A stretch of 64,000 nt of DNA from Candidatus Micrarchaeia archaeon (GCA_041653635.1 JBAZFC010000001.1:335426-399425); one strand, 5' to 3'; shown: positions 47,207 to 59,528, numbered from the stretch's first letter. Notes: generated by a model not told the origin, from the letters alone. Made by a program: numbers and translations.

Positions 47207-47901
47207 GCCGGATGGTTCGTGAAATGGTTGTACGCCTCCGGGTGCGGCATGAGCCCGAATATCCTGCCGCTCTCATCGCAGATGCCGGCAACACCGCCCA
47301 CCGAGCCGTTCGGGTTGTAAGGATATTCATCAATTTTGCCTTCCGGGCTGACATATTGGCATGCAATCGTGTTCTTGCCGACCATCTCTCCCAAGACTTC
47401 GCGCCCTGACGGTATGAACCTCCCCTCACCATGCCTCACTGGAAGGTCCATGTACGCTATCCCCTTAGTGAAGACGCACGGGCTCTTCTGGTTCATCGCC
47501 AGCCGTACCCACCTATCTTCAAACTTTCCAGACGCATTGTAAGTAAGAGTCACGCGCTGCGTGAAATCCGGCACAGGAAGCAGCCCCATCTTCACCAGCG
47601 CCTGGAAGCCGTTGCATATCCCCAGCACAAGCTTCCCACCCTTCACGAATTCTGAGATTTCCCCGCCAGCCCTGTGCCTCAACCTGTTCGCGAGAACCCT
47701 AGCCGAGCCGAGGTCGTCCCCGAACGAAAAGCCGCCGGGCAGGATGAGCATGTTGTAATCCCGGAGCAGCGACGGAGAGTCGGTCACTTCGCTCACATGC
47801 CTTATGTCTGCCTCGCCCCCCGAGGTGCGCATAGCATACGCGGTCTCATGGGGGCAGTTTATGCCGTACCCATCAAGCACGATGGCCTTCGCCTTCACCA
47901 T
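47125..47901 (-). CDS. purQ: phosphoribosylformylglycinamidine synthase, glutaminase subunit PurQ
   Basis: Class I glutamine amidotransferase pattern: LILPGGFSFGDD, nucleophile GICNGFQAL, LMPHPE near C-terminus; start MVKAKAIVLDG. Confidence 0.85.
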   Translation of the reverse strand: MVKAKAIVLDGYGINCPHETAYAMRTSGGEADIRHVSEVTDSPSLLRDYNMLILPGGFSFGDDLGSARVLANRLRHRAGGEISEFVKGGKLVLGICNGFQALVKMGLLPVPDFTQRVTLTYNASGKFEDRWVRLAMNQKSPCVFTKGIAYMDLPVRHGEGRFIPSGREVLGEMVGKNTIACQYVSPEGKIDEYPYNPNGSVGGVAGICDESGRIFGLMPHPEAYNHFTNHPAWTRGATKVGEGLRIFRNAVEHIESKF

Positions 47902-50876
47902 TTCAACCCCCCGCTCCACGCGTCGCGCAGCTCAAAGACGTCCTCGTTCACAAGTGCGTTGTCGCCGTTCCTCAGCACCACCCGCTTGTCCCCGCGCACC
48001 CTTCCCGCCTTCTTTGTTTTGGTGCCGAACATCATCTTCTCAAACTTGAACGCGTCCTTCTCGCGCACGCTCACAATGAACCTGCCCGCGCTTTCCGAGA
48101 ACAGGAGCGCCGCATCCTCGTCCGTGTCCTTGCTTATCAGCGAAAGGTCCATTTCCGCACCGACCTTGCCGCCCATCGCGCATTCCGCGAAAGCCGCCGC
48201 AAGCCCGCCATCTGAAACGTCGTGCACGCTCCGTATGGTGCCCCGTTCCATCGCCTTGGAAAGCGCGGCATAGAGTTCGGAGTTCTCCTTCACCCTGACC
48301 TTGGGCATCCCCGCGCCCACGCCGCCGTGCAGCTTGAAATATTCGCTCCCGCCCATCTCGTGGTGCGTCGTGCCGAGCACGTAAATGGCGTCCCCGACCT
48401 CCTTGAAGTCCGAGCTCGCTATCTTAGTAACATCCTCAACTTTCCCCACCACGGTGACCAGCAGCGTTGGGTTTATGGAGTGCTTGCTGTCCCCCGAATA
48501 ATAGTCATTCTTCATGCTGTCTTTTCCGGATATTATCGGGGTCCCGTATCCCACTGCCGCATCATGCATCCCCCTCGCCGCCCTCACGAGCTGCGCAAGC
48601 TTGAAGTCCCCATCGGGATTGCGCGGCCCCTTTATCGGGTCGGGCCAGCAGAAATTGTCCAGGCAGGCGAGATAGCCGAACTTCGCCCCGCACGCGATTG
48701 CGTTCCGCACGCCCTCATCCACGGCGTTCATCGCCATGTGGTATGCATCTTCCGTATATCTCGGGCAAACCCCGTGCGCGACCGCCAGCCCGCCGTTCAT
48801 TCCCAATATGGGCCTGAACACGCCGCCGTCCGAAGGGGCGTTCCCCTCCATGAGCGGCTTGAGCGCGCTCCCCCCCTGCACCTCGTGGTCGTACTGCCGT
48901 ATCACCCATTCCTTTGACGCGATGTTCGGGGACGCGAGCAGCGCCTTCAGCGCCTCGCCGTGCTGCATCAGCGGCCTGCCCGGCGGGATAGGCATCCTGT
49001 CCTTCCACACCGCCTTGAGATGCATCTGTGGGACGCCCTCGTGCAGGAATTGCATATCCACATACGCGACAGTGCTCTTTCCGTAGAGGATGTGGAACTT
49101 CCCGCTATCCGTGAATGTCCCCGCTATGCTTGCCTCCACACCATGCTTCTTCGCCAGCTTCTCTATTCCCGGCATCTTTTCCGCCGGCACCGCGAGCGTC
49201 ATCCTCTCCTGCGATTCCGAAAGCAGTATCTCCCACGGGTCCAGCCCGGGGTATTTCAGCGGGCACTTGTCCAGATGGACCTCGCAACCGCCGCTGAGCT
49301 GCGCCAGCTCGCCTATGCTTGAAGAAAGCCCGCCGGCCCCGTCGTCCGTGACCGCTTCGAACAGCCCGAGGTCCCTCGCCTCAAGCACCATGTCTATGAC
49401 TTTTTTCTGTGTTATCGGGTCGCCTATCTGCACCACGCTGCCAGCTATTCCCGTCGTAAGCTGCTGTGAAGAGAAAGTCGCCCCATGAATCCCATCCTTC
49501 CCTATTCTCCCACCGACCATCACCGCAAGGTACCCTGGTTCTATCTTCTTCCTCGCCGTCTCCCTGCCGCCTATCTCGTGCGGCATCATCCCCACCGTTC
49601 CCGCATACACGAGCGGCCTCGCCGTGTAGCATTTCTCAAACACGACCGAGCCATTAACCGTCGGAATCCCGACCATGTTCCCGCCGTGCTCTATACCCCT
49701 CACGACGCCCTTCGCAATCCTCTGCGGATGCAGGCATCCCTTTGGCACATCTTTCTCGTCCAGGTAGCCGAAACACAGCACGTTTATGTTCGCGATGGGC
49801 TTCGCGCCCATACCTGTCCCCAGCACGTCCCTGTTCACGCCGAGTATTCCAGTGAGCGCGCCCCCGTACGGGTCCAGCGCCGAAGGGGCGTTGTGCGTCT
49901 CCACCTTCACCGCGATGTCGTTCTCATGGTCAAACCGGATTATGCCGCCGTTGTCCTTGAACACCGAGACCACGTACGGCTTCCGCACCTCATCCGTTGC
50001 GGAGCGGATGTATGTCTTGAATATGGAATCTATCTTCTCTTCCCTCCCCTCAACTCCTTCACCTTCCTCCGAATAATCTATTTTGGCGTTGAATATCTTG
50101 TGCTTGCAGTGCTCGCTCCAGGACTGCGCCAGGGCCTCCAGCTCAACGTCGGTCGCGCCCTTGCCCAACCCCATTTTTTCCCGTTCCTTCCGCACCGCCG
50201 CCTTGGCGTAGTGCGCCTTTATCTCGCGCATCTCCTCCAGGGAAAGGGCGAGCGTCCGCTCGCGGCTGATTTTCACCAGCTCCTCGTCCGGAACCTGGAG
50301 GTCTATCTCCTCGGCGACCGGGGCATGGTCCAGCTCCACGCGCGGAATGTACGGCTCAAACGCGCCGCTCTCCGGCTCGTAAACCTTCCATGCCTGTATC
50401 ACTTCGTTCGCCAGCAGCTTCTTCGCTATTTCCGCCAGCACGGAATCGTCGTCAAAATCCGCCCTTATCGCATACACCCGCGACGTGTATGCCTCCACCT
50501 CCTTTCCGAGCACGTCCCTTACTCCCTCAACCGCGGTGTTCCCCTCGTTGTCGGTCATCCCGGGTAGGAAGCCCACCTCTATCCTCCAGTAATCAGGATA
50601 GAACGGCGCCTTGAATGAGAACTCCTCGGAAACGGCGTCGGCGAAAAGCTCCTTGCCCAGCTTCTCCATCTCCCCATCCGAAAGTTCGCCGTAGAAATTG
50701 TATGCGCGCACGATGGCGACGTCGGTTGGCTTCACGCCTGCGAGCTCTGCTATCTTCTTTGCCAGAGGGGCGGCGCCGGGGTCTCTAAGGTCGCCTTTTG
50801 GCCTTACCTCTATGCGCCGCGCACCAAGAGGAAGGGGGAGCCCCCCCTTCTCTTTAGGGTAATCATAACCCCCCAT
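47895..50876 (-). CDS. purL: phosphoribosylformylglycinamidine synthase PurL with N-terminal PurS-like extension (PurSL-type)
   Basis: 993 aa; tandem PurM-like/AIRS domains typical of PurL; N-terminal ~80 aa resembles PurS; immediately upstream of purQ. Confidence 0.8.
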   Translation of the reverse strand: MGGYDYPKEKGGLPLPLGARRIEVRPKGDLRDPGAAPLAKKIAELAGVKPTDVAIVRAYNFYGELSDGEMEKLGKELFADAVSEEFSFKAPFYPDYWRIEVGFLPGMTDNEGNTAVEGVRDVLGKEVEAYTSRVYAIRADFDDDSVLAEIAKKLLANEVIQAWKVYEPESGAFEPYIPRVELDHAPVAEEIDLQVPDEELVKISRERTLALSLEEMREIKAHYAKAAVRKEREKMGLGKGATDVELEALAQSWSEHCKHKIFNAKIDYSEEGEGVEGREEKIDSIFKTYIRSATDEVRKPYVVSVFKDNGGIIRFDHENDIAVKVETHNAPSALDPYGGALTGILGVNRDVLGTGMGAKPIANINVLCFGYLDEKDVPKGCLHPQRIAKGVVRGIEHGGNMVGIPTVNGSVVFEKCYTARPLVYAGTVGMMPHEIGGRETARKKIEPGYLAVMVGGRIGKDGIHGATFSSQQLTTGIAGSVVQIGDPITQKKVIDMVLEARDLGLFEAVTDDGAGGLSSSIGELAQLSGGCEVHLDKCPLKYPGLDPWEILLSESQERMTLAVPAEKMPGIEKLAKKHGVEASIAGTFTDSGKFHILYGKSTVAYVDMQFLHEGVPQMHLKAVWKDRMPIPPGRPLMQHGEALKALLASPNIASKEWVIRQYDHEVQGGSALKPLMEGNAPSDGGVFRPILGMNGGLAVAHGVCPRYTEDAYHMAMNAVDEGVRNAIACGAKFGYLACLDNFCWPDPIKGPRNPDGDFKLAQLVRAARGMHDAAVGYGTPIISGKDSMKNDYYSGDSKHSINPTLLVTVVGKVEDVTKIASSDFKEVGDAIYVLGTTHHEMGGSEYFKLHGGVGAGMPKVRVKENSELYAALSKAMERGTIRSVHDVSDGGLAAAFAECAMGGKVGAEMDLSLISKDTDEDAALLFSESAGRFIVSVREKDAFKFEKMMFGTKTKKAGRVRGDKRVVLRNGDNALVNEDVFELRDAWSGGLKW
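50839..50876. repeat. 38-nt exact repeat, copy A (covers the purL start codon and first 12 codons)
   Basis: AGCCCCCCCTTCTCTTTAGGGTAATCATAACCCCCCAT identical to 52610..52647. Confidence 0.8.
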
Positions 50877-50994: not shown

Positions 50995-51900
50995 ATGCAA
51001 TGCGCATTCCACCCAACACTGTTCCACACCGCTCCCGGGATTGGGCGCAGGCTGGGGTTCAGGGGGCGGATGAACATCCTCCAGGCGATGCGCCACTTCA
51101 AGGACAGCATCCCCACGCACGCCGAGTTTGACGAGCTGCTCCATCTCACCCCAGGCAAGACGCCGCGCGCCCTCACCACCAACGCGGGCACCGGCCTGAT
51201 GCACACCGGCACGTTCCTTGCCTATCCCGGCAAGGGCCGCACATTCCCCGGTCTCTTTGAGTACAAGGACCCCCAAACCAGCCTCTGGCTCTGCCTTGAC
51301 ACCAGGTTCTGCAGCGGCAGGTCCGGCATAGCGGTTATCGTGGAAGGGGATTTCACCCTGCATCACAGCGGAAGGAGGATCCAGATTGTCCCCCAGAACA
51401 AGCCCGCGGTGCTTGAGCAATTCCCCCAGTTCCCCAGCTGGTACGGGTACCACCTTTGCAGGAGGCTGCCCGTGCTGAAAGACGGGGTGGAGGACGAATC
51501 CGGGTTCCACCCCGGCCGTTTTTTGCAGCGCATAGAAGGCCCGTGGCTGGGCGCCCTGGCCCGCACCATGAACAGCGGAAACTCAGACGAGAACTACGTC
51601 CATGCATACGGCGGCCCTTCCCTGGACCGCGCGGTGATCGTCTGGGAGTACTACGCCACGGATGCCAAGCCGGAAAACCCAGCGAACCGCAGGGTATTCA
51701 TAATGCCCGGCGATGGCAGGCCCAAAATCATAACCCCAGACCATGCCGTCCGGGGCCCACCCGCAGAATACCTGAAGGCAAAGAACAGGTGGGACCAGGA
51801 CATGATACTCCATGGCATGGACCCGGCGCACTGCCCCCATCCGGGCCCGCCGCCTATGCCCGAACAATACTTGCCTTCCCCGAAGGCAGGCAAGGCATGA
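50995..51900 (+). CDS. hypothetical protein (~300 aa)
   Basis: ORF with balanced composition, TATA-like TTTTATTAAG ~25 nt upstream; antisense ORF 50968..51510 judged a shadow frame; start may be Met 26. Confidence 0.4.
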   Translation: MQCAFHPTLFHTAPGIGRRLGFRGRMNILQAMRHFKDSIPTHAEFDELLHLTPGKTPRALTTNAGTGLMHTGTFLAYPGKGRTFPGLFEYKDPQTSLWLCLDTRFCSGRSGIAVIVEGDFTLHHSGRRIQIVPQNKPAVLEQFPQFPSWYGYHLCRRLPVLKDGVEDESGFHPGRFLQRIEGPWLGALARTMNSGNSDENYVHAYGGPSLDRAVIVWEYYATDAKPENPANRRVFIMPGDGRPKIITPDHAVRGPPAEYLKAKNRWDQDMILHGMDPAHCPHPGPPPMPEQYLPSPKAGKA

Positions 51901-52606
51901 TTTCCGAATCAGGCACGCCCAGCAGTTCCCCAAGCTTTTCCGCCGCCTCCTTCTTCTCCATCTTTCCCGGCACAATCAGCACTTTCTTCCTTATCCACTT
52001 CGCATCTTCAGCGCCAGCGGAAACTCTTCCGTTCTCCTCAATCCCGATTGCGAGCATCAATTTAGTGTTCTTGAGCCACTCCCTCTCGCCCGAAATCGCA
52101 AACCCCCCTGCCCCGACAAATCCGCCCGTCGCATGTTTAGACAGTTGCCCCTTCTTCACCGCATAAACATCAACGCTCGCCATCCTCTTTCCCCACGCCT
52201 TGGAGTACGAGGCCGCAATCGCCGCCGCTTCTTTCTTCTCCTCTTCCGAAGCCCCAACCCCATTTTTCAGAATCGTCGCAGCCGCCCCGCGTATGTCCGC
52301 ATGGAAGAACAAATCCCCATCCTCCATCTTCCCCGCGAGCTTGTCGTTCTGCTGCGCGGTCTTCCCAGCCAGAATGAGCTTTCCCGCATTCGTAAAACTC
52401 CAGTGGAACTCCTCAAACCACTCCCTCTTCCTCGCGACCTTGACCGCCCTCGCCTTCTTTTTCGCCGCCGCGCCCATCCTCTTCTGCGTTTCAGCCATCG
52501 CTACGCGCACGCCCTCCGCCTTCTCCCGCGCCTTCTTTGCCTCCTCATAGTAGCGCGCCGAGTTCTCGTGTATGCTCTTTCCTAGTTGGATGCTTACCTT
52601 AACCAC
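51854..52606 (-). CDS. NFACT-R/DUF814-like protein (tentative)
   Basis: GDLFFHADIRGAAATIL resembles the DUF814 core motif; GTG start per the ORF track; the 38-nt repeat containing an out-of-frame ATG lies immediately upstream. Confidence 0.45.
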   Translation of the reverse strand: MVKVSIQLGKSIHENSARYYEEAKKAREKAEGVRVAMAETQKRMGAAAKKKARAVKVARKREWFEEFHWSFTNAGKLILAGKTAQQNDKLAGKMEDGDLFFHADIRGAAATILKNGVGASEEEKKEAAAIAASYSKAWGKRMASVDVYAVKKGQLSKHATGGFVGAGGFAISGEREWLKNTKLMLAIGIEENGRVSAGAEDAKWIRKKVLIVPGKMEKKEAAEKLGELLGVPDSEIMPCLPSGKASIVRA

Positions 52607-52609
52607 ATT

Positions 52610-52647
52610 AGCCCCCCCTTCTCTTTAGGGTAATCATAACCCCCCAT
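52610..52647. repeat. 38-nt exact repeat, copy B (immediately upstream of the DUF814-like gene)
   Basis: Identical to 50839..50876; on the minus strand it would encode MGGYDYPKEKGGL then run out of frame with the downstream ORF. Confidence 0.8.
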
Positions 52648-52744
52648 CCATTTATTTTTCTACCGATGTATGCCTCCGCCACAATTTTTGATTTTCAAAC
52701 CCCTCCGAAAAAGCTTTATATAGCTTCCTTCCGATTAAGAGCCC

Positions 52745-52990
52745 ATGGCGTACATTGAAACTCTCCTCTCAGACATCCTGGTTACGCTCAAGTCCGTTGG
52801 CGTGTCAGTCTCTCTCCTCCTGATAATCATAGGGGGCCTGGTCTACGGGCTTGCGCAGCTGCAGCCCGGTGACACAAGGGGCAAATGGCAGAACATGGCA
52901 ATCGGCATTTTTGTGGGCGGTGTCGTGATTGCTGCCATAATTGGGGCCGCAGAGCTCATCCAGCTCGTCTCATCCAACCTCCTCACGTGA
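52745..52990 (+). CDS. small two-TM membrane protein (VirB2/CedA1-type pilin-like candidate)
   Basis: 81 aa with two hydrophobic helices separated by a short polar loop (QLQPGDTRGKWQN); first gene of a tight membrane operon. Confidence 0.5.
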   Translation: MAYIETLLSDILVTLKSVGVSVSLLLIIIGGLVYGLAQLQPGDTRGKWQNMAIGIFVGGVVIAAIIGAAELIQLVSSNLLT

Positions 52991-53002
52991 GGGAGTGAAC
53001 AG

Positions 53003-53932
53003 ATGGCCGCGGACCTGACGCTTGCCGGCATCGTAGTAAGCCTATCCATAATACTCTCAGGCCTGCTCATAGGCCTCGGCAAGACCATCGGCTCCAAGCG
53101 CGTTGAGCACTTCGGCGAGGAAGAGCTGGTCCAGTCCGCGATAAACGCCGCCCTCGTGGGCGCCTACGCCGCCATCATCTCTATTGCCAGCGAGGTGAGC
53201 AAGGGAATCGCGGAGGGGCAGACATGCGTCGCCGGCGACGCGCTTGAGAACCTCCAGTGCATCTTCTCCAATTTATCCGCCGACATCTTCCAGCTCCTCA
53301 CCCAGGCAATCAACCTCCACCAGATAGTCTCCTATTACCAGTCCATAACGCTGGAGTTCGCAACCTTCTCCATCCAGCCGATGTCCCACCTCTCATCCAT
53401 CCAGTCCATACTCGGAGGGCAGATTCTCACGCTGCAGGCGCTCCTCACGCTCGCCCAGCTCCAGGTGCAGATACTCGCCTTCTTTGCCCCGCAGCTCCTC
53501 ACCTTCTTCCTCCCGCTCGGCCTCATCTTCCGCTCCTTCTTCTCCACGCGCAAGCTCGGCGGCTTCCTCATCGCGCTCTCCATCGGAATATATCTCTTCT
53601 ACCCCGCGTTCATCCTCATCTTCCCGGCGCCCCAGTTCAACGTCACGGCCGCCAACCTCACCAACCTCACCAACACCTCCCTTTACACCACGGTCCCGAT
53701 ACTTGACCTGAACGACAACTACGCCATCGCCAGCAGGTTCGACAACATGACCACCGGCGACTTCACCGGAGACCTCACGCTCGCCACCCAGCAGATAAGC
53801 GCCTCCATCGCCTCGCTCTCCATGTTCGTGATGCTCGCGCCCCTGTTTTCGCTCCTCATAACAGTCATATTCATAAAGGAGGTCACCGACATATTCGGCG
53901 GTGAATTCTTCTTCGCGGTGAGTTCCCTATGA
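53003..53932 (+). CDS. polytopic membrane protein (VirB6/CedA-like channel candidate)
   Basis: 309 aa, about five hydrophobic helices, extracytoplasmic region with several N-x-S/T sequons; 4-nt overlap with the next gene. Confidence 0.5.
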   Translation: MAADLTLAGIVVSLSIILSGLLIGLGKTIGSKRVEHFGEEELVQSAINAALVGAYAAIISIASEVSKGIAEGQTCVAGDALENLQCIFSNLSADIFQLLTQAINLHQIVSYYQSITLEFATFSIQPMSHLSSIQSILGGQILTLQALLTLAQLQVQILAFFAPQLLTFFLPLGLIFRSFFSTRKLGGFLIALSIGIYLFYPAFILIFPAPQFNVTAANLTNLTNTSLYTTVPILDLNDNYAIASRFDNMTTGDFTGDLTLATQQISASIASLSMFVMLAPLFSLLITVIFIKEVTDIFGGEFFFAVSSL

Positions 53933-54708
53933 TACAGAACCGAATGGTAACCATGATGGCGCTTGCTGGCGGGCTTGCAGCCCTTGTGATGGCGATAGTG
54001 CTGTGGAGCCCGATATTCTCCGCGCTCGCCGGCTTCTTTTTCGCCCTCTCCCTGATGGTCTGGAAATACGGCTACCTCCTGATTCCGTACATAACAAAAG
54101 CCGGACGCATAGTAGAAATCCGCGGCGGCTACGAAATCCCGCCCACCCGCGACTGCATCATAAAAAAATCGGGCAACGGCTTCTACTCCACGAAATTCCT
54201 TGAAATCCGCTATTATGAGAGCACGGTGGACAAGAGCACGCAGGACCGCTCGTCCATGCTCGCCTCGTTTGAGAAGGCGCTCGCCTCGCTCAAGAACACA
54301 GTTAAAATCTCGCTCCTAGTCTCGGAAGTTGACCTCACAAAAGAAATAGACGAGCTGAAGACGCGCAGGAGCTCCGCCGAGAACAAGCGCAGGAAACTCC
54401 CGCCCAACAGCGAGGAGCTCGTCCGCCTTGACCGCGAAATCGCGATGTACAACCGCCAGCTTGAGCGCATCACCCGCGGCGACCGCCCGCTCGTGCTCAC
54501 GTCCTTCGTCTCCACCACCGCATACGGCGTCACTAGGGAGGAGGCGCTCTCCAAGGTGCGCAGGCAGGCGAAGGAGGTCAAGACCATCGTATCCTCCACC
54601 CTTGGCGCGGACGTCGTTGACCTGTTTGACCTTGACATGATAAGGTGCTTCGAATGGGAGTTCTTCCTCCCGCCGGAGGTGGAACAGCTTAAGGATGAGG
54701 TATTCTAG
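53929..54708 (+). CDS. membrane-anchored protein (N-terminal TM hairpin + soluble domain; possible VirB3/VirB4-N-like part)
   Basis: 259 aa; two N-terminal TM helices then charged soluble domain; ends with TAG immediately followed in the same frame by the ATG of the ATPase gene. Confidence 0.5.
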   Translation: MIQNRMVTMMALAGGLAALVMAIVLWSPIFSALAGFFFALSLMVWKYGYLLIPYITKAGRIVEIRGGYEIPPTRDCIIKKSGNGFYSTKFLEIRYYESTVDKSTQDRSSMLASFEKALASLKNTVKISLLVSEVDLTKEIDELKTRRSSAENKRRKLPPNSEELVRLDREIAMYNRQLERITRGDRPLVLTSFVSTTAYGVTREEALSKVRRQAKEVKTIVSSTLGADVVDLFDLDMIRCFEWEFFLPPEVEQLKDEVF

Positions 54709-56145
54709 ATGGATGTGCAGAAGCTCAACGTCTCCGACCTCTCAAAGCGCCTCTTCCTGGTGCATCCCCCAGAGCCCCGCCCCGACTCCCTCATCTCCTC
54801 CGTGAATGAGGGCATATACATCGGCAAGACGCGCTGGCTCAACGTCCCCGTCTTCTGGAACTTCAAGAAGCTGATTAACCCGCACGTCGCCATCGTCGGC
54901 ATAACCGGCTCGGGCAAATCCTACCTCGTGAAAACCTTCCTCACCCGCGCCTCGCTCATCTGGAACTCCAACGCAATAATCCTTGACTGGGTTGGCGAAT
55001 ACGACAAATGGGTGAAGCAGGCTGGGGGCACGGTCCTCCACCTTGGGGAGGAACACCTCAACCTCATGGACCTCGCGGGGCTCACGCCCTCCGAGCGCAC
55101 GAAGCAGATAATGTCCGCCCTGGAAATCCTTCTTGACCTGCACAACTTCCCAGCGGAGCGCAACGACATTGAGGAGGCGATAGAGGACACGTACGCGGGC
55201 GTGAAGAACCCCACCCTCAGCAACGTCGTTGAAATGCTGGAGAAAGGAAGGAAGAAATCCGCGGCGCGCCTGCTCAAGCACTTCACCACCCAGGGCAGCG
55301 ACTTCTTCGCGAAGCCCTCCACGCTCGCGATGGAGAAGCTCACCAACTCCGGGCTCATGTGCATAGACCTGCACTCCCTCCCAACCGAGGAGATGCGCTC
55401 GCTAGCCGGCCTCACAATCCTGCAGTTCCTCAAGGAAAAAATGCGCAGGGAGGAGATGAAGGAGGAGAAGGGCGTCCGCCTCTTCGTCGTGGTTGATGAG
55501 GCGTGGAAGATTGCGAGCGACGAAAGGAGCGACGTCATCACGATAGTGAGGGAGGGGAGGAAATACAACTTCGCCCTCATAGTCGCGTCCCAAAACCCGA
55601 CGGACATGCACAAGACAATCTTCAGCAACGTCGGCACGATGTTCATCCTGCGCCTCATCCTGAGGGAGTTCAAAGACTACGTCCGCCAGTCCCTCAGCTA
55701 CTCGGATTACATAGATTCTGAGATTTCCAAGTTCGGCGTCGGGGACGCCGCAATGAACATGATATTCTCAAAACGCACCAGCGGCTCGCACACCTTCCTG
55801 CTCAACAAGATTGACGGGGAGGAGCCGCTTTTCATTTATGCGCTGGAGGTTGATGGCATGTCTGTTGAGAAGGAAAGGGAACAGTTCTGCAATATGCTCT
55901 ACGAGCTCGGGCTCACGGACGAGCAGATAGGGCTCGTGAAGAACGAGTTTGAGAGGAATGACGGCACTATGGACGCCACCGCGTTCGTGTCGCTGCTGGA
56001 AAAGTTCGGCTATTCGCCCTCGTCAATAATGGGCTTCCTGCGCCAGCTGGAGGTGGACGAGAAGGACATAGTTGAGATATTCTCCCTTGCGAGGAGGAGG
56101 AAGGCCACCAAGGGGCTGGTTGACCTCACCCTTACGGAGGAATAA
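54709..56145 (+). CDS. P-loop ATPase of the VirB4/TraC/CedB/HerA-like (DUF87-type) class
   Basis: Walker A AIVGITGSGKSYLV, Walker B RLFVVVDEAWKIA, downstream IVASQNP. Confidence 0.7.
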   Translation: MDVQKLNVSDLSKRLFLVHPPEPRPDSLISSVNEGIYIGKTRWLNVPVFWNFKKLINPHVAIVGITGSGKSYLVKTFLTRASLIWNSNAIILDWVGEYDKWVKQAGGTVLHLGEEHLNLMDLAGLTPSERTKQIMSALEILLDLHNFPAERNDIEEAIEDTYAGVKNPTLSNVVEMLEKGRKKSAARLLKHFTTQGSDFFAKPSTLAMEKLTNSGLMCIDLHSLPTEEMRSLAGLTILQFLKEKMRREEMKEEKGVRLFVVVDEAWKIASDERSDVITIVREGRKYNFALIVASQNPTDMHKTIFSNVGTMFILRLILREFKDYVRQSLSYSDYIDSEISKFGVGDAAMNMIFSKRTSGSHTFLLNKIDGEEPLFIYALEVDGMSVEKEREQFCNMLYELGLTDEQIGLVKNEFERNDGTMDATAFVSLLEKFGYSPSSIMGFLRQLEVDEKDIVEIFSLARRRKATKGLVDLTLTEE

Positions 56146-56147
56146 TT

Positions 56148-56843
56148 ATGGAAGAGATAATCCGCATAAGCACGAAAAGGAAAAGGCCGCTTAAGCCGCT
56201 GCTCCAGACGCTCGGCTCATTCGGGTTCACGAAGGTGGATTACTCCGACGAGGCCCTCATAATAGAGAAGGTGGAGTCCGAGGACCTGAACGGCAAGCCA
56301 TACCTCTATTACCATCTTGAGCTGCTCAAGGGCGCAATAGTATTCAAATACACCGTGCCGACGCTCGAAAACAAAACGTCGCGCATGCTGGAGATGGGCC
56401 TCCTGCTCATGAACCTCTTCCAGCTCCTCACCGCGTATTACGACGTGCCGGTGCAGGCCGCCTACCCGCTCTATTTCCCGCTGCTCAAATCCCTCTCCGA
56501 GTCCATGGACAAGGAGAAGCTGGAAACGTATTCCGAGCTCAAGGACCTCAGGCAGAAGCACAACTCCCTGGAGCGCAAGTACAACGACCTTGTCCAGGCG
56601 AGCGCGCAGAACGCGCGCATCCTCGTTGAATATGAGAGGAAGAACGAAGACCTCGGCGACAGGGTGAAGAAGCTGGAGGGCGTTGGCGACATGGAGATGC
56701 AGGGCCAGCTATTTGAATGGGTGCGCACCCACGACGGCGAGATAGATGTGCTGGAGTTCTCCCGCCTCAACAACATCGCCGTGGGCAGGGTGGAAGAGGG
56801 CCTTGACGCCCTCATAAAGAACGGGTTCATAAGGAAAAGGTAG
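56148..56843 (+). CDS. hypothetical coiled-coil protein with C-terminal winged-helix-like domain
   Basis: 231 aa; central heptad-like charged region, C-terminal VLEFSRLNNIAVGRVEEGLDALIKNGFI; last gene of the membrane operon (2-nt gap from ATPase). Confidence 0.45.
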   Translation: MEEIIRISTKRKRPLKPLLQTLGSFGFTKVDYSDEALIIEKVESEDLNGKPYLYYHLELLKGAIVFKYTVPTLENKTSRMLEMGLLLMNLFQLLTAYYDVPVQAAYPLYFPLLKSLSESMDKEKLETYSELKDLRQKHNSLERKYNDLVQASAQNARILVEYERKNEDLGDRVKKLEGVGDMEMQGQLFEWVRTHDGEIDVLEFSRLNNIAVGRVEEGLDALIKNGFIRKR

Positions 56844-57009
56844 GGATTGCAATGCCGCCAAAAGAGAAGGAGAAGAAATCCAGCGGGTACCGCTTTGAGA
56901 TGCTCAGGAGGTTCTCCCGCCCGCGCTCCTACATAATCACGCGGCAGTACAAGATGGACATGCTTTCAATCCTTTCCAAGACGATTTCAACCATAATGGG
57001 TGGCAAGCA

Positions 57010-58302
57010 ATGAAGATAGTCCTTGTCGGCTCGGGCGCGAGGGAGCACGCAATCGCGGAGCAGCTTTCCAAGGGCGCCTCCCTCTATTCCATAATGGAAA
57101 AAAGGCACCCCGGCATAATGAAGCTCTCCACCGAATCCCTCATCTGCGACCCCGCGGACAAGGAGGAAGTGGGCGCATGGTGCATAGAAAAAGGGATAGA
57201 CCTCGGCTTCGTAAGCCCGGACGGCCTGCTTGAAAAAGGCGTCTCGGACATGCTCGCATCCGCGGGCATCAAGGTCGCCTCCCCCCTCCGCGCCGCCGCA
57301 CGCATTGAATGGGACAAGGGATACGCGCGCACGCTCCTGCACAAGCACGGCATCTCCGGCCTCCCCAAATTCCTTCTCGTAAAAAATATGGCAGAAGCCG
57401 AAAAATTCCTTTCCGAACTCGGCGACGTTGTCATAAAGCCCGTCGGCCTGACCGGCGGAAAAGGCGTGCGCATAATGGGCGAGCACCTTGAGTCTTCCGA
57501 GGACGCCCTTTCCTACATCTCCGAACTCATAAAGAAGGACGGGCACGCACTGCTCGAAGAAAAATTGGATGGAGAGGAATTCTCCCTCCAGGCGTTCTGC
57601 GACGGCACGCACCTTTCCGCGATGCCCCCGGTGCAGGACCACAAGCGCGCCTTCGTCAATGACGCGGGCCCCAACACGGGCGGCATGGGCTCCTATTCCT
57701 CCGGCCGCCTCCTCCCCTTCATGGAGCTGAAGGATTTGGAGGAGGCGAAATCCATAATGCAGAAGACCGTTGACGCGATGCGCGAGGAGGGCAACCCCTT
57801 CAAGGGCATCCTCTACGGCGGCTTCATGATAACCCGCGGGGGCGTCAAGCTCATAGAATACAACGCCCGCTTCGGCGACCCCGAGGCGATGAACGTGCTG
57901 ATGCTCCTGCGCACCCCGCTCGCCGACATCCTGAAGTCCATTTCCGAGGGCAGCCTGCAGGAGGCGGCGTTCTCCACCAACTGCACCGTGGTGAAATACC
58001 TCGTGCCCGAGGGCTACCCCGGCGCCGGGAAGAAGGATTCAAAAATAGAAGTGGACCAGCGCGCAGTGTGGGACTGCGGCGCCAAGGCATACTACGCATC
58101 CGTCTATGAGAAGGGCGGCTCCATATTCACCACAACCTCCCGCGCCGTGGCTGTGGCCGCGCAGGATGCGGCGCTTGAGCACGCGGAGGAGAAGGCGGAA
58201 TGCGCGACGCGCGCAGTCCACGGCCAGCTCTGGCACCGCCCCGACATCGGGACGCCCGCCCTCGTCCGCAGGAGGGTGGAGCACATGAGGAGGCTGAAAT
58301 GA
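57010..58302 (+). CDS. purD: phosphoribosylamine--glycine ligase
   Basis: 430 aa; MKIVLVGSGAREHA N-terminus, ATP-grasp motifs (VIKPVGLTGGKGV, EEKLDGEEFSLQAF). Confidence 0.85.
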   Translation: MKIVLVGSGAREHAIAEQLSKGASLYSIMEKRHPGIMKLSTESLICDPADKEEVGAWCIEKGIDLGFVSPDGLLEKGVSDMLASAGIKVASPLRAAARIEWDKGYARTLLHKHGISGLPKFLLVKNMAEAEKFLSELGDVVIKPVGLTGGKGVRIMGEHLESSEDALSYISELIKKDGHALLEEKLDGEEFSLQAFCDGTHLSAMPPVQDHKRAFVNDAGPNTGGMGSYSSGRLLPFMELKDLEEAKSIMQKTVDAMREEGNPFKGILYGGFMITRGGVKLIEYNARFGDPEAMNVLMLLRTPLADILKSISEGSLQEAAFSTNCTVVKYLVPEGYPGAGKKDSKIEVDQRAVWDCGAKAYYASVYEKGGSIFTTTSRAVAVAAQDAALEHAEEKAECATRAVHGQLWHRPDIGTPALVRRRVEHMRRLK

Positions 58303-59528
58303 TGCGCGCAAAGGACGCACTGTTGCTGCTCTTGCTCCTCAACCTTTCGTTCTCCGCATACTCCGGCCGCATGGTCGCAACGGTGGAGAAGGAATGGCTC
58401 ATAGAGTCCAACGGCACCCTCCGCAACGTCCTGCTCAACAGCTCCTTCCTTTCCGAATCCCCACACCAGCGCATAACCAGCATGAACACTAGCGACGGCG
58501 AGCTGGTGCGCTACGGCGACGAGGTGCGCCTCATATACCGGGCGGATTCCACGAATCCCCCCAAGCGCATAACCGCCACCGCCACCATTGAAGTTTCCTA
58601 TATGCCCGCGCTCTCCTCAAACCCGCCCCTCACGAACCTTTCATACCAATCCACGGAATTCACAAACTACACCGGAGAGATGGCGCAGTTCTCCGGCGCC
58701 CAGACCTCCTCCTCATCAGGCCAGCTGCATGCCGCCGCAATCCTCACGGACTGGGTCAGCAAGAACGTCCGTTACGACATGGCGTTCTGGGGCAGGGACG
58801 CGCCGGCGCAGGACGTCTGGTCCGGGAGGGGGGCGGTGTGCGTCGGCTACACGCACCTCCTGCTTGCCCTCGCCCGCTCCATAGGGCTTGAGGCCCGCTA
58901 CGTTTCCGGCTACGTGTTTTCCGACGACTGGCAGGAGCATGCATGGGCGGAATTCAACATAGGGGGCCAGTGGGTGGCCGCGGACCCCACGTTCCGCGAG
59001 TTCGCGTTCCTTGACGCCCGCCACATCGCGTCCCGCTATTCGGACGACCAGTCCGGCGCAGTTGACCGCATGTCCGCGCGCGGCGGCGATTTCTCCTTCA
59101 ACTCCATAACCCACGTCCGCATAACCGAGAGCGCGCCGTTCCCCGAACAGGCGACGGCATACGCCGCCTTTGACGGCACGGAATTCACCGTGGCCATCTC
59201 CAACACGCGGGGCACATATTTCACGCCAACCCTTACCGCCACCTTCCCGCCCTACATACACAGGGAGGAGCGCGGCATACTCTTCCTCGCCCCCATGGAG
59301 AGGAAAACGCTCTCCTATTCGCTGGACACCAGTTCGCTAGGCGGTGGCGGCTACTACTCCGTCCCTTATATCATATCCATACAGGGCACGGAGATAAGCG
59401 ACACAATACAGCTCTCCCGCAGCGGTGAACAGCCATCATCCCAGCCGCAGTCAGCCGCATGCCCGGTCACGCTTGCGCTCGTACTATCCTTATTCCTCAC
59501 AATCGCGCGCTACAAACCGAATGTTTAA
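58299..59528 (+). CDS. transglutaminase-like domain protein, secreted and C-terminally membrane-anchored
   Basis: Start MMRAKDALLLLLLLNLSFSA overlaps the purD stop; Cys-His-Asp-like core (GRGAVCVGYTHLLLALARSIG ... HAWAEF); C-terminal hydrophobic anchor. Confidence 0.6.
   Translation: MMRAKDALLLLLLLNLSFSAYSGRMVATVEKEWLIESNGTLRNVLLNSSFLSESPHQRITSMNTSDGELVRYGDEVRLIYRADSTNPPKRITATATIEVSYMPALSSNPPLTNLSYQSTEFTNYTGEMAQFSGAQTSSSSGQLHAAAILTDWVSKNVRYDMAFWGRDAPAQDVWSGRGAVCVGYTHLLLALARSIGLEARYVSGYVFSDDWQEHAWAEFNIGGQWVAADPTFREFAFLDARHIASRYSDDQSGAVDRMSARGGDFSFNSITHVRITESAPFPEQATAYAAFDGTEFTVAISNTRGTYFTPTLTATFPPYIHREERGILFLAPMERKTLSYSLDTSSLGGGGYYSVPYIISIQGTEISDTIQLSRSGEQPSSQPQSAACPVTLALVLSLFLTIARYKPNV

What the first reader, a model, noticed from the sequence alone, without database searches (positions are those of the whole stretch)
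54700..54717. Single in-frame TAG separates the membrane-anchored gene from the VirB4/HerA-like ATPase gene
ORF 53929..54708 and ORF 54709..56145 are in the same reading frame: (54709-53929) is divisible by 3, and the sequence reads ...GAG GTA TTC TAG ATG GAT GTG.... Together they would give a ~737-aa protein, about the size of a full VirB4 with N-terminal membrane-associated domain. Possible explanations are a genuinely split gene with tightly coupled re-initiation, stop-codon readthrough, a recent nonsense mutation (pseudogenisation), or a sequencing error. Many other genes in the window end in TAG, so genome-wide recoding of TAG is unlikely.
Basis: seen in the sequence. Interest (0 to 1): 0.6.

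Follow-up and report, generated by a model that had tools for sequence, protein, structure and literature searches.

The report
Two-gene split VirB4-like ATPase operon junction
The in-frame TAG is an ordinary stop at a zero-spacer junction between two separate, phylum-wide conserved Micrarchaeota genes, which together resemble one VirB4/CedB-type secretion ATPase; it is not a broken gene, a sequencing error or a recoding site.

Summary
ORF 53929..54708 ends in TAG, and the ATG of ORF 54709..56145 follows at once in the same frame.

The stop is real and old:
- All 79 Micrarchaeota species loci where the stop could be read end the upstream protein at the same place.
- They use TGA, TAG and TAA.
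- Of the 69 loci with the ATPase gene downstream, 20 have tight junctions, in all three phases (6 in frame, as chance predicts).
- 49 loci have longer spacers, often with their own TATA box and Shine-Dalgarno-like motif. One has a whole gene in between.
- No fused ~740-aa protein appeared among the 150 best of 213 profile hits in 1.84 billion representatives.
- The window's closest relative has TGA plus a 4-nt spacer, which is out of frame.

The upstream protein is a transmembrane hairpin plus a domain whose best structural matches are TrwK/VirB4. Relatives align weakly to the N-terminus of CedB. The downstream protein is a VirB4/CedB/HerA-type ATPase without that domain. Both sit in a five-gene operon with a VirB2-like pilin and a possibly VirB6-like membrane protein.

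Pseudogene, sequencing error and TAG recoding are rejected. Conserved or selected readthrough is rejected; weak readthrough in this genome cannot be excluded. Termination-reinitiation coupling is the likely expression mechanism. The junction is ordinary; the split architecture is mildly interesting.

The parts
52715..52722 (+). Archaeal TATA-box-like octamer TTTATATA, 22 nt upstream of the first ATG of the operon (candidate promoter; short or no leader)
   Evidence: Read from the sequence. The gene upstream is a minus-strand NFACT gene, so 52607..52744 is a divergent intergenic region. Promoter function is inferred, not tested.
52745..52990 (+). 81-aa protein with two transmembrane helices, VirB2/TrbC-like pilin candidate
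   Evidence: The window protein hits PF18895 T4SS_pilin weakly (E 0.025). Of 11 orthologues, 9 hit PF18895 (best E 4.4e-5) and 6 hit PF04956 TrbC/VirB2 (best E 2.6e-6). It lies directly upstream of the 309-aa gene in 21 loci.
53003..53932 (+). 309-aa polytopic helical membrane protein, possible VirB6/CedA/TedA counterpart
53929..54708 (+). 259-aa protein: N-terminal transmembrane hairpin (residues ~2-59) plus a cytoplasmic alpha/beta domain with a long helical hairpin; VirB4/CedB N-terminal-domain-like, encoded as a stand-alone subunit
54697..54701 (+). Shine-Dalgarno-like GAGGT inside the last codons of the upstream gene (D-E-V), 7 nt before the ATPase ATG
   Evidence: Read from the sequence. 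GAGGT is present in the last 12 nt of the upstream gene in 15 of 20 tightly joined orthologous pairs, against 10 of 49 spaced pairs (Fisher p = 5e-5, not corrected for phylogeny). Function is inferred.
54706..54708 (+). TAG stop codon of the 259-aa gene, followed at once by the ATPase start codon (0-nt spacer)
   Evidence: It is reproduced in an independent assembly. Orthologues use TGA 47 times, TAG 22 times and TAA 10 times at this position.
54709..56145 (+). 478-aa VirB4/CedB/HerA-type P-loop ATPase that lacks the VirB4 N-terminal domain (Walker A GITGSGKS at residues 64-71)
   Evidence: Pfam DUF87 scores 63.6 bits and AAA_10 54.2 bits, both above gathering score. NCBIfam matches are CedB 249-549/590, CD1110 VirB4-like 391-684/752 and VirB4_CagE 423-700/792, all far below equivalog cutoffs. 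The 120 best homologues are 417-536 aa, none fused, and P0255 is 100% identical.
56148..56843 (+). 231-aa soluble protein of unknown function, always directly downstream of the ATPase gene; last gene of the operon
   Evidence: It is syntenic in nearly all loci that hold the ATPase gene. It has no family match. It starts 2 nt after the ATPase stop, and GGAGGA lies just upstream.

Best explanation
ORF 53929..54708 and ORF 54709..56145 are two separate genes of one operon in a Micrarchaeota (DPANN archaeon) chromosome. The first encodes a membrane-anchored protein: a transmembrane hairpin plus a domain that looks like the N-terminal domain of VirB4/CedB. The second encodes a VirB4/CedB/HerA-type motor ATPase without that domain. 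Together they reproduce the TM-NTD-ATPase layout of CedB, CedD or VirB4 as two polypeptides, and this division is fixed across the phylum. The TAG is a true stop. That it is in frame with the next ATG is a one-in-three accident of a zero-length spacer. In this lineage the ATPase is most likely translated by termination-reinitiation, helped by the GAGGT motif 7 nt upstream, which would give matched amounts of the two subunits. The two proteins then presumably assemble at the membrane with the VirB2-like pilin and the polytopic membrane protein encoded upstream. That would form a minimal Ced/Ted-like apparatus derived from a type IV secretion system. Shown: the stop, its conservation, the variable junctions, the absence of fused forms, the ATPase family and the fold similarity. 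Inferred: translational coupling, physical association and transport function.
For: Junction sequence.
Stand-alone upstream protein: all 104 homologues are stand-alone, and the 32 aligned end at the same conserved C-terminal position, all but two in F.
Orthologous junctions: in 79 species-representative loci the stop is TGA 47, TAG 22, TAA 10. In the 69 loci with the ATPase gene downstream, 20 junctions are tight (-4 to +8 nt), 35 have 11-300 nt and 14 have more than 300 nt. Tight junctions fall in all three phases.
Closest relatives: L001 (97% identical protein) reads TTC TGA CCGG ATG, which is out of frame. L002 (91%) reads TGATG.
Intervening gene: in L018 a 795-aa gene lies between the two genes.
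Own start signals: 20 of 30 spacers of 25-300 nt carry a TATA-like octamer, mostly TTTATATA, usually 40-70 nt before the ATPase ATG. Many also have GGAGG-like motifs.
No fused form: none among the 150 best of 213 profile hits in 1.84 billion representatives, and none among the 120 best ATPase homologues.
Independent assembly: identical DNA, with the genes called separately.
Colinear CedB matches: upstream-family member P0060 residues 18-210 align to CedB 11-193, and the window ATPase residues 31-326 align to CedB 249-549.
Operon partners: VirB2-like pilin and a possible VirB6-like protein.
Literature: CedB and CedD are TM + VirB4-like NTD + ATPase (PMC11868833). Ced/Ted consists of VirB2-, VirB6- and VirB4-like parts (PMC9905601). 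Coupling by termination-reinitiation needs overlaps or very short distances and is enriched in subunits of heteromeric complexes (PMC6728339, PMC10666635).
Against: The VirB6-like assignment is inconclusive.
No complex model, expression data or proteomics were available, so coupling, interaction and function are inferences.
Start codons of some orthologous ATPase genes were chosen by a heuristic, so some spacer lengths are approximate.
The GAGGT association is not corrected for phylogeny.
Confidence: 0.85

Rival explanations
1. Programmed or leaky TAG readthrough in this lineage produces some full-length 738-aa TM-NTD-ATPase fusion besides the two separate proteins.
For: The two ORFs are in frame with a single stop and no spacer. 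Three relatives also have in-frame stop-ATG junctions (L003, L004, L011), and three more have stop-TTG (L048, L052, L075). A fused layout would match CedB or VirB4 (PMC11868833).
Against: In-frame junctions are 6 of 20, exactly the chance rate. The closest relatives are out of frame: L001 has a 4-nt spacer and L002 has a TGATG overlap. All three stop codons occur. 49 of 69 species have spacers longer than 10 nt, often with stops in all frames and their own promoters. No fused protein exists in the databases searched. TAG ends 18 of 46 long ORFs here, and the window holds no suppressor tRNA. No readthrough-promoting structure can sit downstream, because the next gene starts at once.
Confidence: 0.03
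2. A recent nonsense mutation split a formerly single VirB4-like gene (pseudogenisation), or the TAG is a sequencing or assembly error.
For: Only the in-frame arrangement itself.
Against: The stop lies at the same conserved position in all 79 species where it could be read, and all 104 database homologues are stand-alone proteins of this type, down to 38% identity. Both ORFs are strongly conserved at the protein level. An independent assembly has the identical sequence. The downstream ORF begins with its own conserved ATG and N-terminus, MDVQK/MK.., in relatives. Inteins target the ATPase P-loop in relatives, which is typical of functional genes.
Confidence: 0.01
3. The 259-aa protein is not a detached VirB4/CedB N-terminal domain. 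It would be an unrelated membrane adaptor, for example an analogue of VirB3 or VirB8, or it may not work with the ATPase at all. On this view the fold similarity is noise from a common alpha/beta plus helical-hairpin topology.
For: Structural scores are modest and sequence evidence is marginal. In 14 species the two genes lie more than 300 nt apart. In at least 5 loci with about 6 kb of downstream sequence no ATPase gene was found.
Against: Two independent structure-search programs both put TrwK/VirB4 first, out of 48,164 and 350,542 chains. Recurrent weak hits go to the N-terminal parts of the CedB and VirB4 profiles, colinear with the ATPase hits. The ATPase lacks exactly this domain. The two genes are neighbours in most species.
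Confidence: 0.12

Closest known systems
CedB / CedD of the crenarchaeal Ced DNA-import system, and TedB of the Ted system
   Same: HerA/VirB4-type ATPase domain: CedB is the best NCBIfam match of the window ATPase, at profile positions 249-549 of 590. The overall layout is TM + VirB4-like NTD + ATPase (PMC11868833). The genes sit beside a VirB2-like pilin and a polytopic membrane protein, as CedA1/TedC and CedA/TedA do (PMC9905601). The locus is chromosomal, not on a plasmid, and is flanked by purL, purD and an NFACT gene.
   Different: Here TM+NTD and ATPase are two polypeptides. Scores are far below the CedB equivalog cutoff (105 against 700 bits). The host is a DPANN archaeon, not a crenarchaeon. 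There is an extra conserved 231-aa partner gene. The DNA-import function is untested.
Bacterial VirB4 (for example TrwK of plasmid R388) with its partner VirB3
   Same: The best structural match of the 259-aa protein is TrwK/VirB4. The ATPase matches VirB4 family profiles over the C-terminal domain. Gene fusion and fission at the N-terminal side of VirB4 is known, because VirB3-VirB4 fusions exist in some systems (PMC12102498).
   Different: In VirB4 the N- and C-terminal domains are one chain, and the membrane anchor is the separate small VirB3. Here the anchor and the N-terminal domain form one chain and the motor is separate. No VirB8, VirB10, VirB11, VirD4 or relaxase genes were seen in the operon.
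Translationally coupled adjacent gene pairs (termination-reinitiation), as studied in Haloferax volcanii and E. coli
   Same: Co-directional genes with a 0-nt spacer here and -1 or -4 overlaps in relatives. A Shine-Dalgarno-like motif lies inside the upstream gene. The products are likely subunits of one complex (PMC6728339, PMC10666635).
   Different: The usual distances are -4 and -1 nt. A 0-nt, in-frame junction is a less common member of the same class. Coupling was not tested here.

Membership tests
VirB4/CedB-type ATPase of the FtsK-HerA superfamily | P-loop ATPase domain of the HerA/VirB4 type (DUF87 / AAA_10) with Walker A and Walker B motifs | tested here: met
   DUF87 scores 63.6 bits (cutoff 23.2) and AAA_10 scores 54.2 bits (cutoff 27.5). 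GITGSGKS and VVVDEAW are visible.
VirB4/CedB-type ATPase of the FtsK-HerA superfamily | VirB4-like N-terminal domain on the same polypeptide as the ATPase domain | tested here: not met
   The ATPase ORF has only about 30 residues before the ATPase domain. The NTD-like fold is on the separate upstream protein. No fused homologue was found.
VirB4/CedB-type ATPase of the FtsK-HerA superfamily | Score above the curated equivalog or subfamily cutoff of CedB, CedD, VirB4_CagE, TraC or HerA | tested here: not met
   CedB 105 bits against 700, CD1110 89 against 325, VirB4_CagE 62 against 643, HerA 60 against 800.
Ced/Ted-like minimal T4SS-derived system | VirB2-like pilin gene (CedA1/TedC counterpart) in the locus | tested here: met
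   Of 11 orthologues of the 81-aa protein, 9 hit PF18895 T4SS_pilin (best E 4.4e-5) and 6 hit PF04956 TrbC/VirB2 (best E 2.6e-6). The window copy alone is weak (E 0.025, below cutoff).
Ced/Ted-like minimal T4SS-derived system | VirB6-like polytopic channel protein (CedA/TedA counterpart) in the locus | tested here: inconclusive
Ced/Ted-like minimal T4SS-derived system | DNA import or exchange between cells; a pilus made of the pilin | not testable with these tools
   Needs genetics or cryo-EM in a cultivated Micrarchaeon and host co-culture.
Programmed stop-codon readthrough / recoding site | In-frame arrangement and stop-codon identity or context conserved among orthologues; the extended product conserved as one unit | tested here: not met
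   Stops are TGA 47, TAG 22 and TAA 10. Tight-junction phases are 6, 4 and 10. Spacers reach several kb, and no fused proteins exist.
Pseudogene by nonsense mutation | Intact uninterrupted orthologues exist; the interrupted copy is lineage-specific | tested here: not met
   All 79 species loci where the stop could be read, and all 104 and 150 listed database homologues, are stand-alone. The only longer protein, P0158, is a frameshift artefact joined to the upstream gene.
Translationally coupled gene pair (termination-reinitiation) | Co-directional genes with an overlap or very short intergenic distance | tested here: met
   0 nt here. In 19 of the 20 tight relatives the gap is -4 to +4 nt, and in the last it is +8 nt. 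The distance criterion is from PMC10666635.
Translationally coupled gene pair (termination-reinitiation) | Translation of the downstream gene depends on translation of the upstream gene | not testable with these tools
   Needs a two-reporter assay with premature stops in the upstream gene, as in PMC6728339.

The most novel reading that the evidence does not exclude
The five-gene operon 52745..56843 may be a chromosomally fixed machine derived from a type IV secretion system, found across Micrarchaeota. In it the VirB4 motor has been divided for good into a membrane-anchored NTD subunit and a soluble ATPase subunit. These host-dependent DPANN archaea might use it to exchange DNA or other macromolecules with other cells. 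If so, it would be a counterpart of the Ced/Ted systems of Crenarchaeota and of the essential T4SS of Patescibacteria.
Probability: 0.3. Interest if true: 0.55.

Novelty: new variant of a known kind. Interest (0 to 1): 0.25.

Why it matters
The flagged stop codon itself does not matter. It is a normal gene boundary, and annotation pipelines already call two genes.

What has some value is the reading of the pair. The 259-aa protein is a Micrarchaeota 'hypothetical protein' family with no Pfam domain, and it looks like the missing N-terminal half of the neighbouring VirB4/CedB-like ATPase. With the VirB2-like pilin and the polytopic membrane protein, this points to a conserved, chromosomal Ced/Ted-like apparatus in a DPANN phylum whose members depend on host cells.

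That gives a concrete candidate for cell-to-cell transfer in these organisms. It is also a natural example of a VirB4 whose two domains work as separate chains, which could help in dissecting what the N-terminal domain does.

Tried and rejected
Sequence-level identification of the 259-aa protein:
- The profile against PDB sequences gave only noise.
- Pfam on 33 members gave only coiled-coil noise.
- Only NCBIfam gave weak CedB/VirB4 hits.

Structure searches:
- Foldseek against afdb50 was unavailable, so I could not see whether AlphaFold-database CedB/TedB N-termini match.
- I did not model the two-protein complex. Only two structure jobs were allowed. I also assumed, without trying, that the tool would turn away concatenated or locus-derived sequences. 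I used the second job on the 309-aa membrane protein, whose VirB6 similarity stayed inconclusive.

Fused forms:
- P0158 (466 aa) first looked like a fused form. It is a frameshifted join of the upstream membrane-protein gene with the 259-aa gene, not a fusion to the ATPase.

Apparent kilobase gaps between the two genes:
- Five of them (L001, L003, L016, L025, L047) were inteins inside the ATPase gene, not spacers.
- L018 has a real intervening gene.

ORFs upstream of the operon:
- Plus-strand ORFs 50995..51900 and 51812..52585 are probably not genes. A minus-strand NFACT gene overlaps the second (51857..52606).

Literature and TAG recoding:
- Searches for Micrarchaeota or DPANN with VirB4 or T4SS found no description of this cluster. 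The library is incomplete.
- Genome-wide TAG recoding is rejected.

Full report
**Observation.** The sequence reads GAG GTA TTC TAG ATG GAT GTG, with TAG at 54706..54708 and ATG at 54709..54711. ORF 53929..54708 (259 aa) and ORF 54709..56145 (478 aa) share one frame and sum to 737 residues. A separately assembled ENA metagenome contig (L081) is 100% identical to window 52608..57708. It includes the TAG-ATG junction, and its gene calls are 259 aa and 478 aa.

**Is TAG a normal stop here?** Of 46 long non-overlapping ORFs in the window, 18 end in TAG, 17 in TGA and 11 in TAA. The window's three tRNA genes include no suppressor.

**Comparative test of the stop.**
- The 259-aa protein has 104 database homologues, and every named one is from Micrarchaeota (DPANN). 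All are stand-alone. The 99 that are not obvious fragments are 252-294 aa long, down to 38% identity. The 32 that were aligned end at the same conserved position, mostly in the motif ...DEVF.
- A profile of the family was scored against 1.84 billion representative proteins and gave 213 hits. The best 150 are all 317 aa or shorter, except one of 466 aa. That one is a frameshifted join with the upstream membrane-protein gene, not with the ATPase.
- The more distant ~240-aa relatives that carry a name are also from Micrarchaeia.
- The 120 best homologues of the ATPase are 417-536 aa. One is 100% identical and named 'ATP-binding protein [Candidatus Micrarchaeia archaeon]'.
- No fused protein of about 740 aa was found anywhere.

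**Junctions in other species.** I fetched 80 species-representative Micrarchaeota loci and analysed the junctions.
- The stop could be read in 79 loci: TGA 47 times, TAG 22 times and TAA 10 times.
- The ATPase gene lies downstream in 69 loci. The gap is 10 nt or less in 20 of them (-4, -1, 0, +1, +4, +8), 11-300 nt in 35, and more than 300 nt in 14.
- Among the 20 tight junctions, 6 are in frame, 4 are +1 and 10 are +2. This fits the one-in-three chance expectation (binomial p = 1.0).
- The closest relative (L001, 97% identical protein) reads TTC TGA CCGG ATG, which is out of frame. The next (L002, 91%) has the TGATG overlap.
- In L018 a 795-aa cysteine-rich secreted protein gene lies between the two genes.
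- In 20 of 30 spacers of 25-300 nt there is an archaeal TATA-like octamer, mostly the exact TTTATATA. It usually lies 40-70 nt before the ATPase ATG and is often followed by GGAGG-like motifs. In those lineages the ATPase gene has its own start signals.

It rules out a recent nonsense mutation, a sequencing error and any conserved, selected readthrough product.

**What the two proteins are: the ATPase.**
- It passes Pfam's gathering scores for DUF87 (HerA central domain) and AAA_10.
- It aligns to the C-terminal ATPase parts of longer profiles: CedB 249-549/590, CD1110 VirB4-like 391-684/752 and VirB4_CagE 423-700/792. All these scores are far below equivalog cutoffs.
- It therefore lacks the N-terminal domain that those families carry.

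**What the two proteins are: the 259-aa protein.**
- The AlphaFold model (pLDDT 81) shows an N-terminal transmembrane hairpin, then an alpha/beta domain with a long helical hairpin.
- In Foldseek against 350,542 chains the top ten hits are all TrwK/VirB4 (E 9e-4 to 0.05).
- At sequence level, 7 of 33 family members hit the NCBIfam CedB model (best E 3e-4) and 3 hit a VirB4 model.
- In P0060, residues 18-210 align to CedB positions 11-193. This is colinear with the ATPase match to CedB 249-549.
- CedB and CedD were described as TM + VirB4-like NTD + HerA/VirB4 ATPase (PMC11868833).

The two window genes thus reproduce that layout as two chains. The numbers are modest, so I hold the NTD homology at about 0.75.

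**Context.**
- The gene upstream on the minus strand is an NFACT protein. The operon therefore starts at 52745, and TTTATATA lies 22 nt before it.
- The order is: 81-aa two-TM protein, 309-aa polytopic membrane protein, 259-aa protein, ATPase, 231-aa protein. The gaps are +12, -4, 0 and +2 nt.
- The 81-aa family matches T4SS_pilin in 9 of 11 members and TrbC/VirB2 in 6 of 11.
- The order 309-aa gene, 259-aa gene, ATPase, 231-aa gene, then purD and a transglutaminase-like gene is kept across most of the phylum. The pilin-like gene is detected in 21 loci, and purL on the opposite strand upstream in the closer relatives. This points to a core chromosomal locus rather than a mobile element.
- Ced and Ted systems are built from VirB2-, VirB6- and VirB4-like parts (PMC9905601).
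- I found no paper that describes such a cluster in Micrarchaeota, but the library is incomplete.

**Mechanism.**
- Shown: two genes, a conserved boundary, variable junctions, the ATPase family and the fold match.
- Inferred: in this lineage the ribosome that terminates at TAG reinitiates at the adjacent ATG, helped by GAGGT at 54697..54701, 7 nt upstream. GAGGT occurs in the last 12 nt of the upstream gene in 15 of 20 tight pairs against 10 of 49 spaced pairs (Fisher p = 5e-5, uncorrected for phylogeny).
- Termination-reinitiation needs overlaps or very short distances and is enriched among subunits of heteromeric complexes (PMC6728339, PMC10666635).
- The membrane-anchored NTD subunit would then tether the ATPase to the membrane channel, as the VirB4 N-terminal domain and VirB3 do in bacteria. 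This step and the transport function are inference.

**Verdict.** The flagged feature is an ordinary operon junction whose in-frame phase is chance. The interpretation 'genuinely split gene with coupled initiation' holds, and the others fail. The split VirB4/CedB-like architecture, conserved in a DPANN phylum, is a new variant of a known kind and of modest interest.

Noticed in passing
L001:2679-4260 (also L003, L016, L025, L047); corresponds to window ~54918/54919: In five relatives, including the closest one, the ATPase gene carries an in-frame insertion of about 1.5 kb between K70 and S71 of the Walker A motif. In L001 it has Intein_splicing and LAGLIDADG_3 domains, so it is a homing intein in the P-loop. 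The window's copy lacks it.
   Followed up: partly
window 52745..52990: An 81-aa protein with two transmembrane helices. Its orthologues match T4SS_pilin and TrbC/VirB2 pilin families. It is the first gene of the operon and follows a TTTATATA box at 52715..52722.
   Followed up: partly
window 56148..56843: A 231-aa soluble protein that always lies directly downstream of the ATPase gene across the phylum. It has no family match and its function is unknown.
   Followed up: partly
window 47895..50876 (-), 57010..58302 (+), 58200..59528 (+): The T4SS-like operon is flanked by purine-synthesis genes and a transglutaminase-like gene. These are a 993-aa gene on the minus strand that looks like purL by its sequence (my reading, no family scan was run) and purD. 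The adjacency to purD and the transglutaminase-like gene is conserved in most Micrarchaeota loci. It is unclear whether this means anything beyond conserved gene order.
   Followed up: no
window 50995..52606: The plus-strand ORFs 50995..51900 and 51812..52585 have odd Arg/Pro-rich translations. The second overlaps a minus-strand ORF (51857..52606) that matches NFACT RNA-binding domains. The plus-strand ORFs are probably not genes.
   Followed up: partly
window ~44000: GC skew is positive from about 4 kb to 44 kb and negative afterwards, so cumulative skew peaks near 44 kb. This may reflect a switch in gene strand bias or a replication landmark.
   Followed up: no
L018:6851-9238: In one Micrarchaeota species a 795-aa cysteine-rich, apparently secreted and membrane-anchored protein gene is inserted between the 259-aa gene and the ATPase gene.
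   Followed up: no
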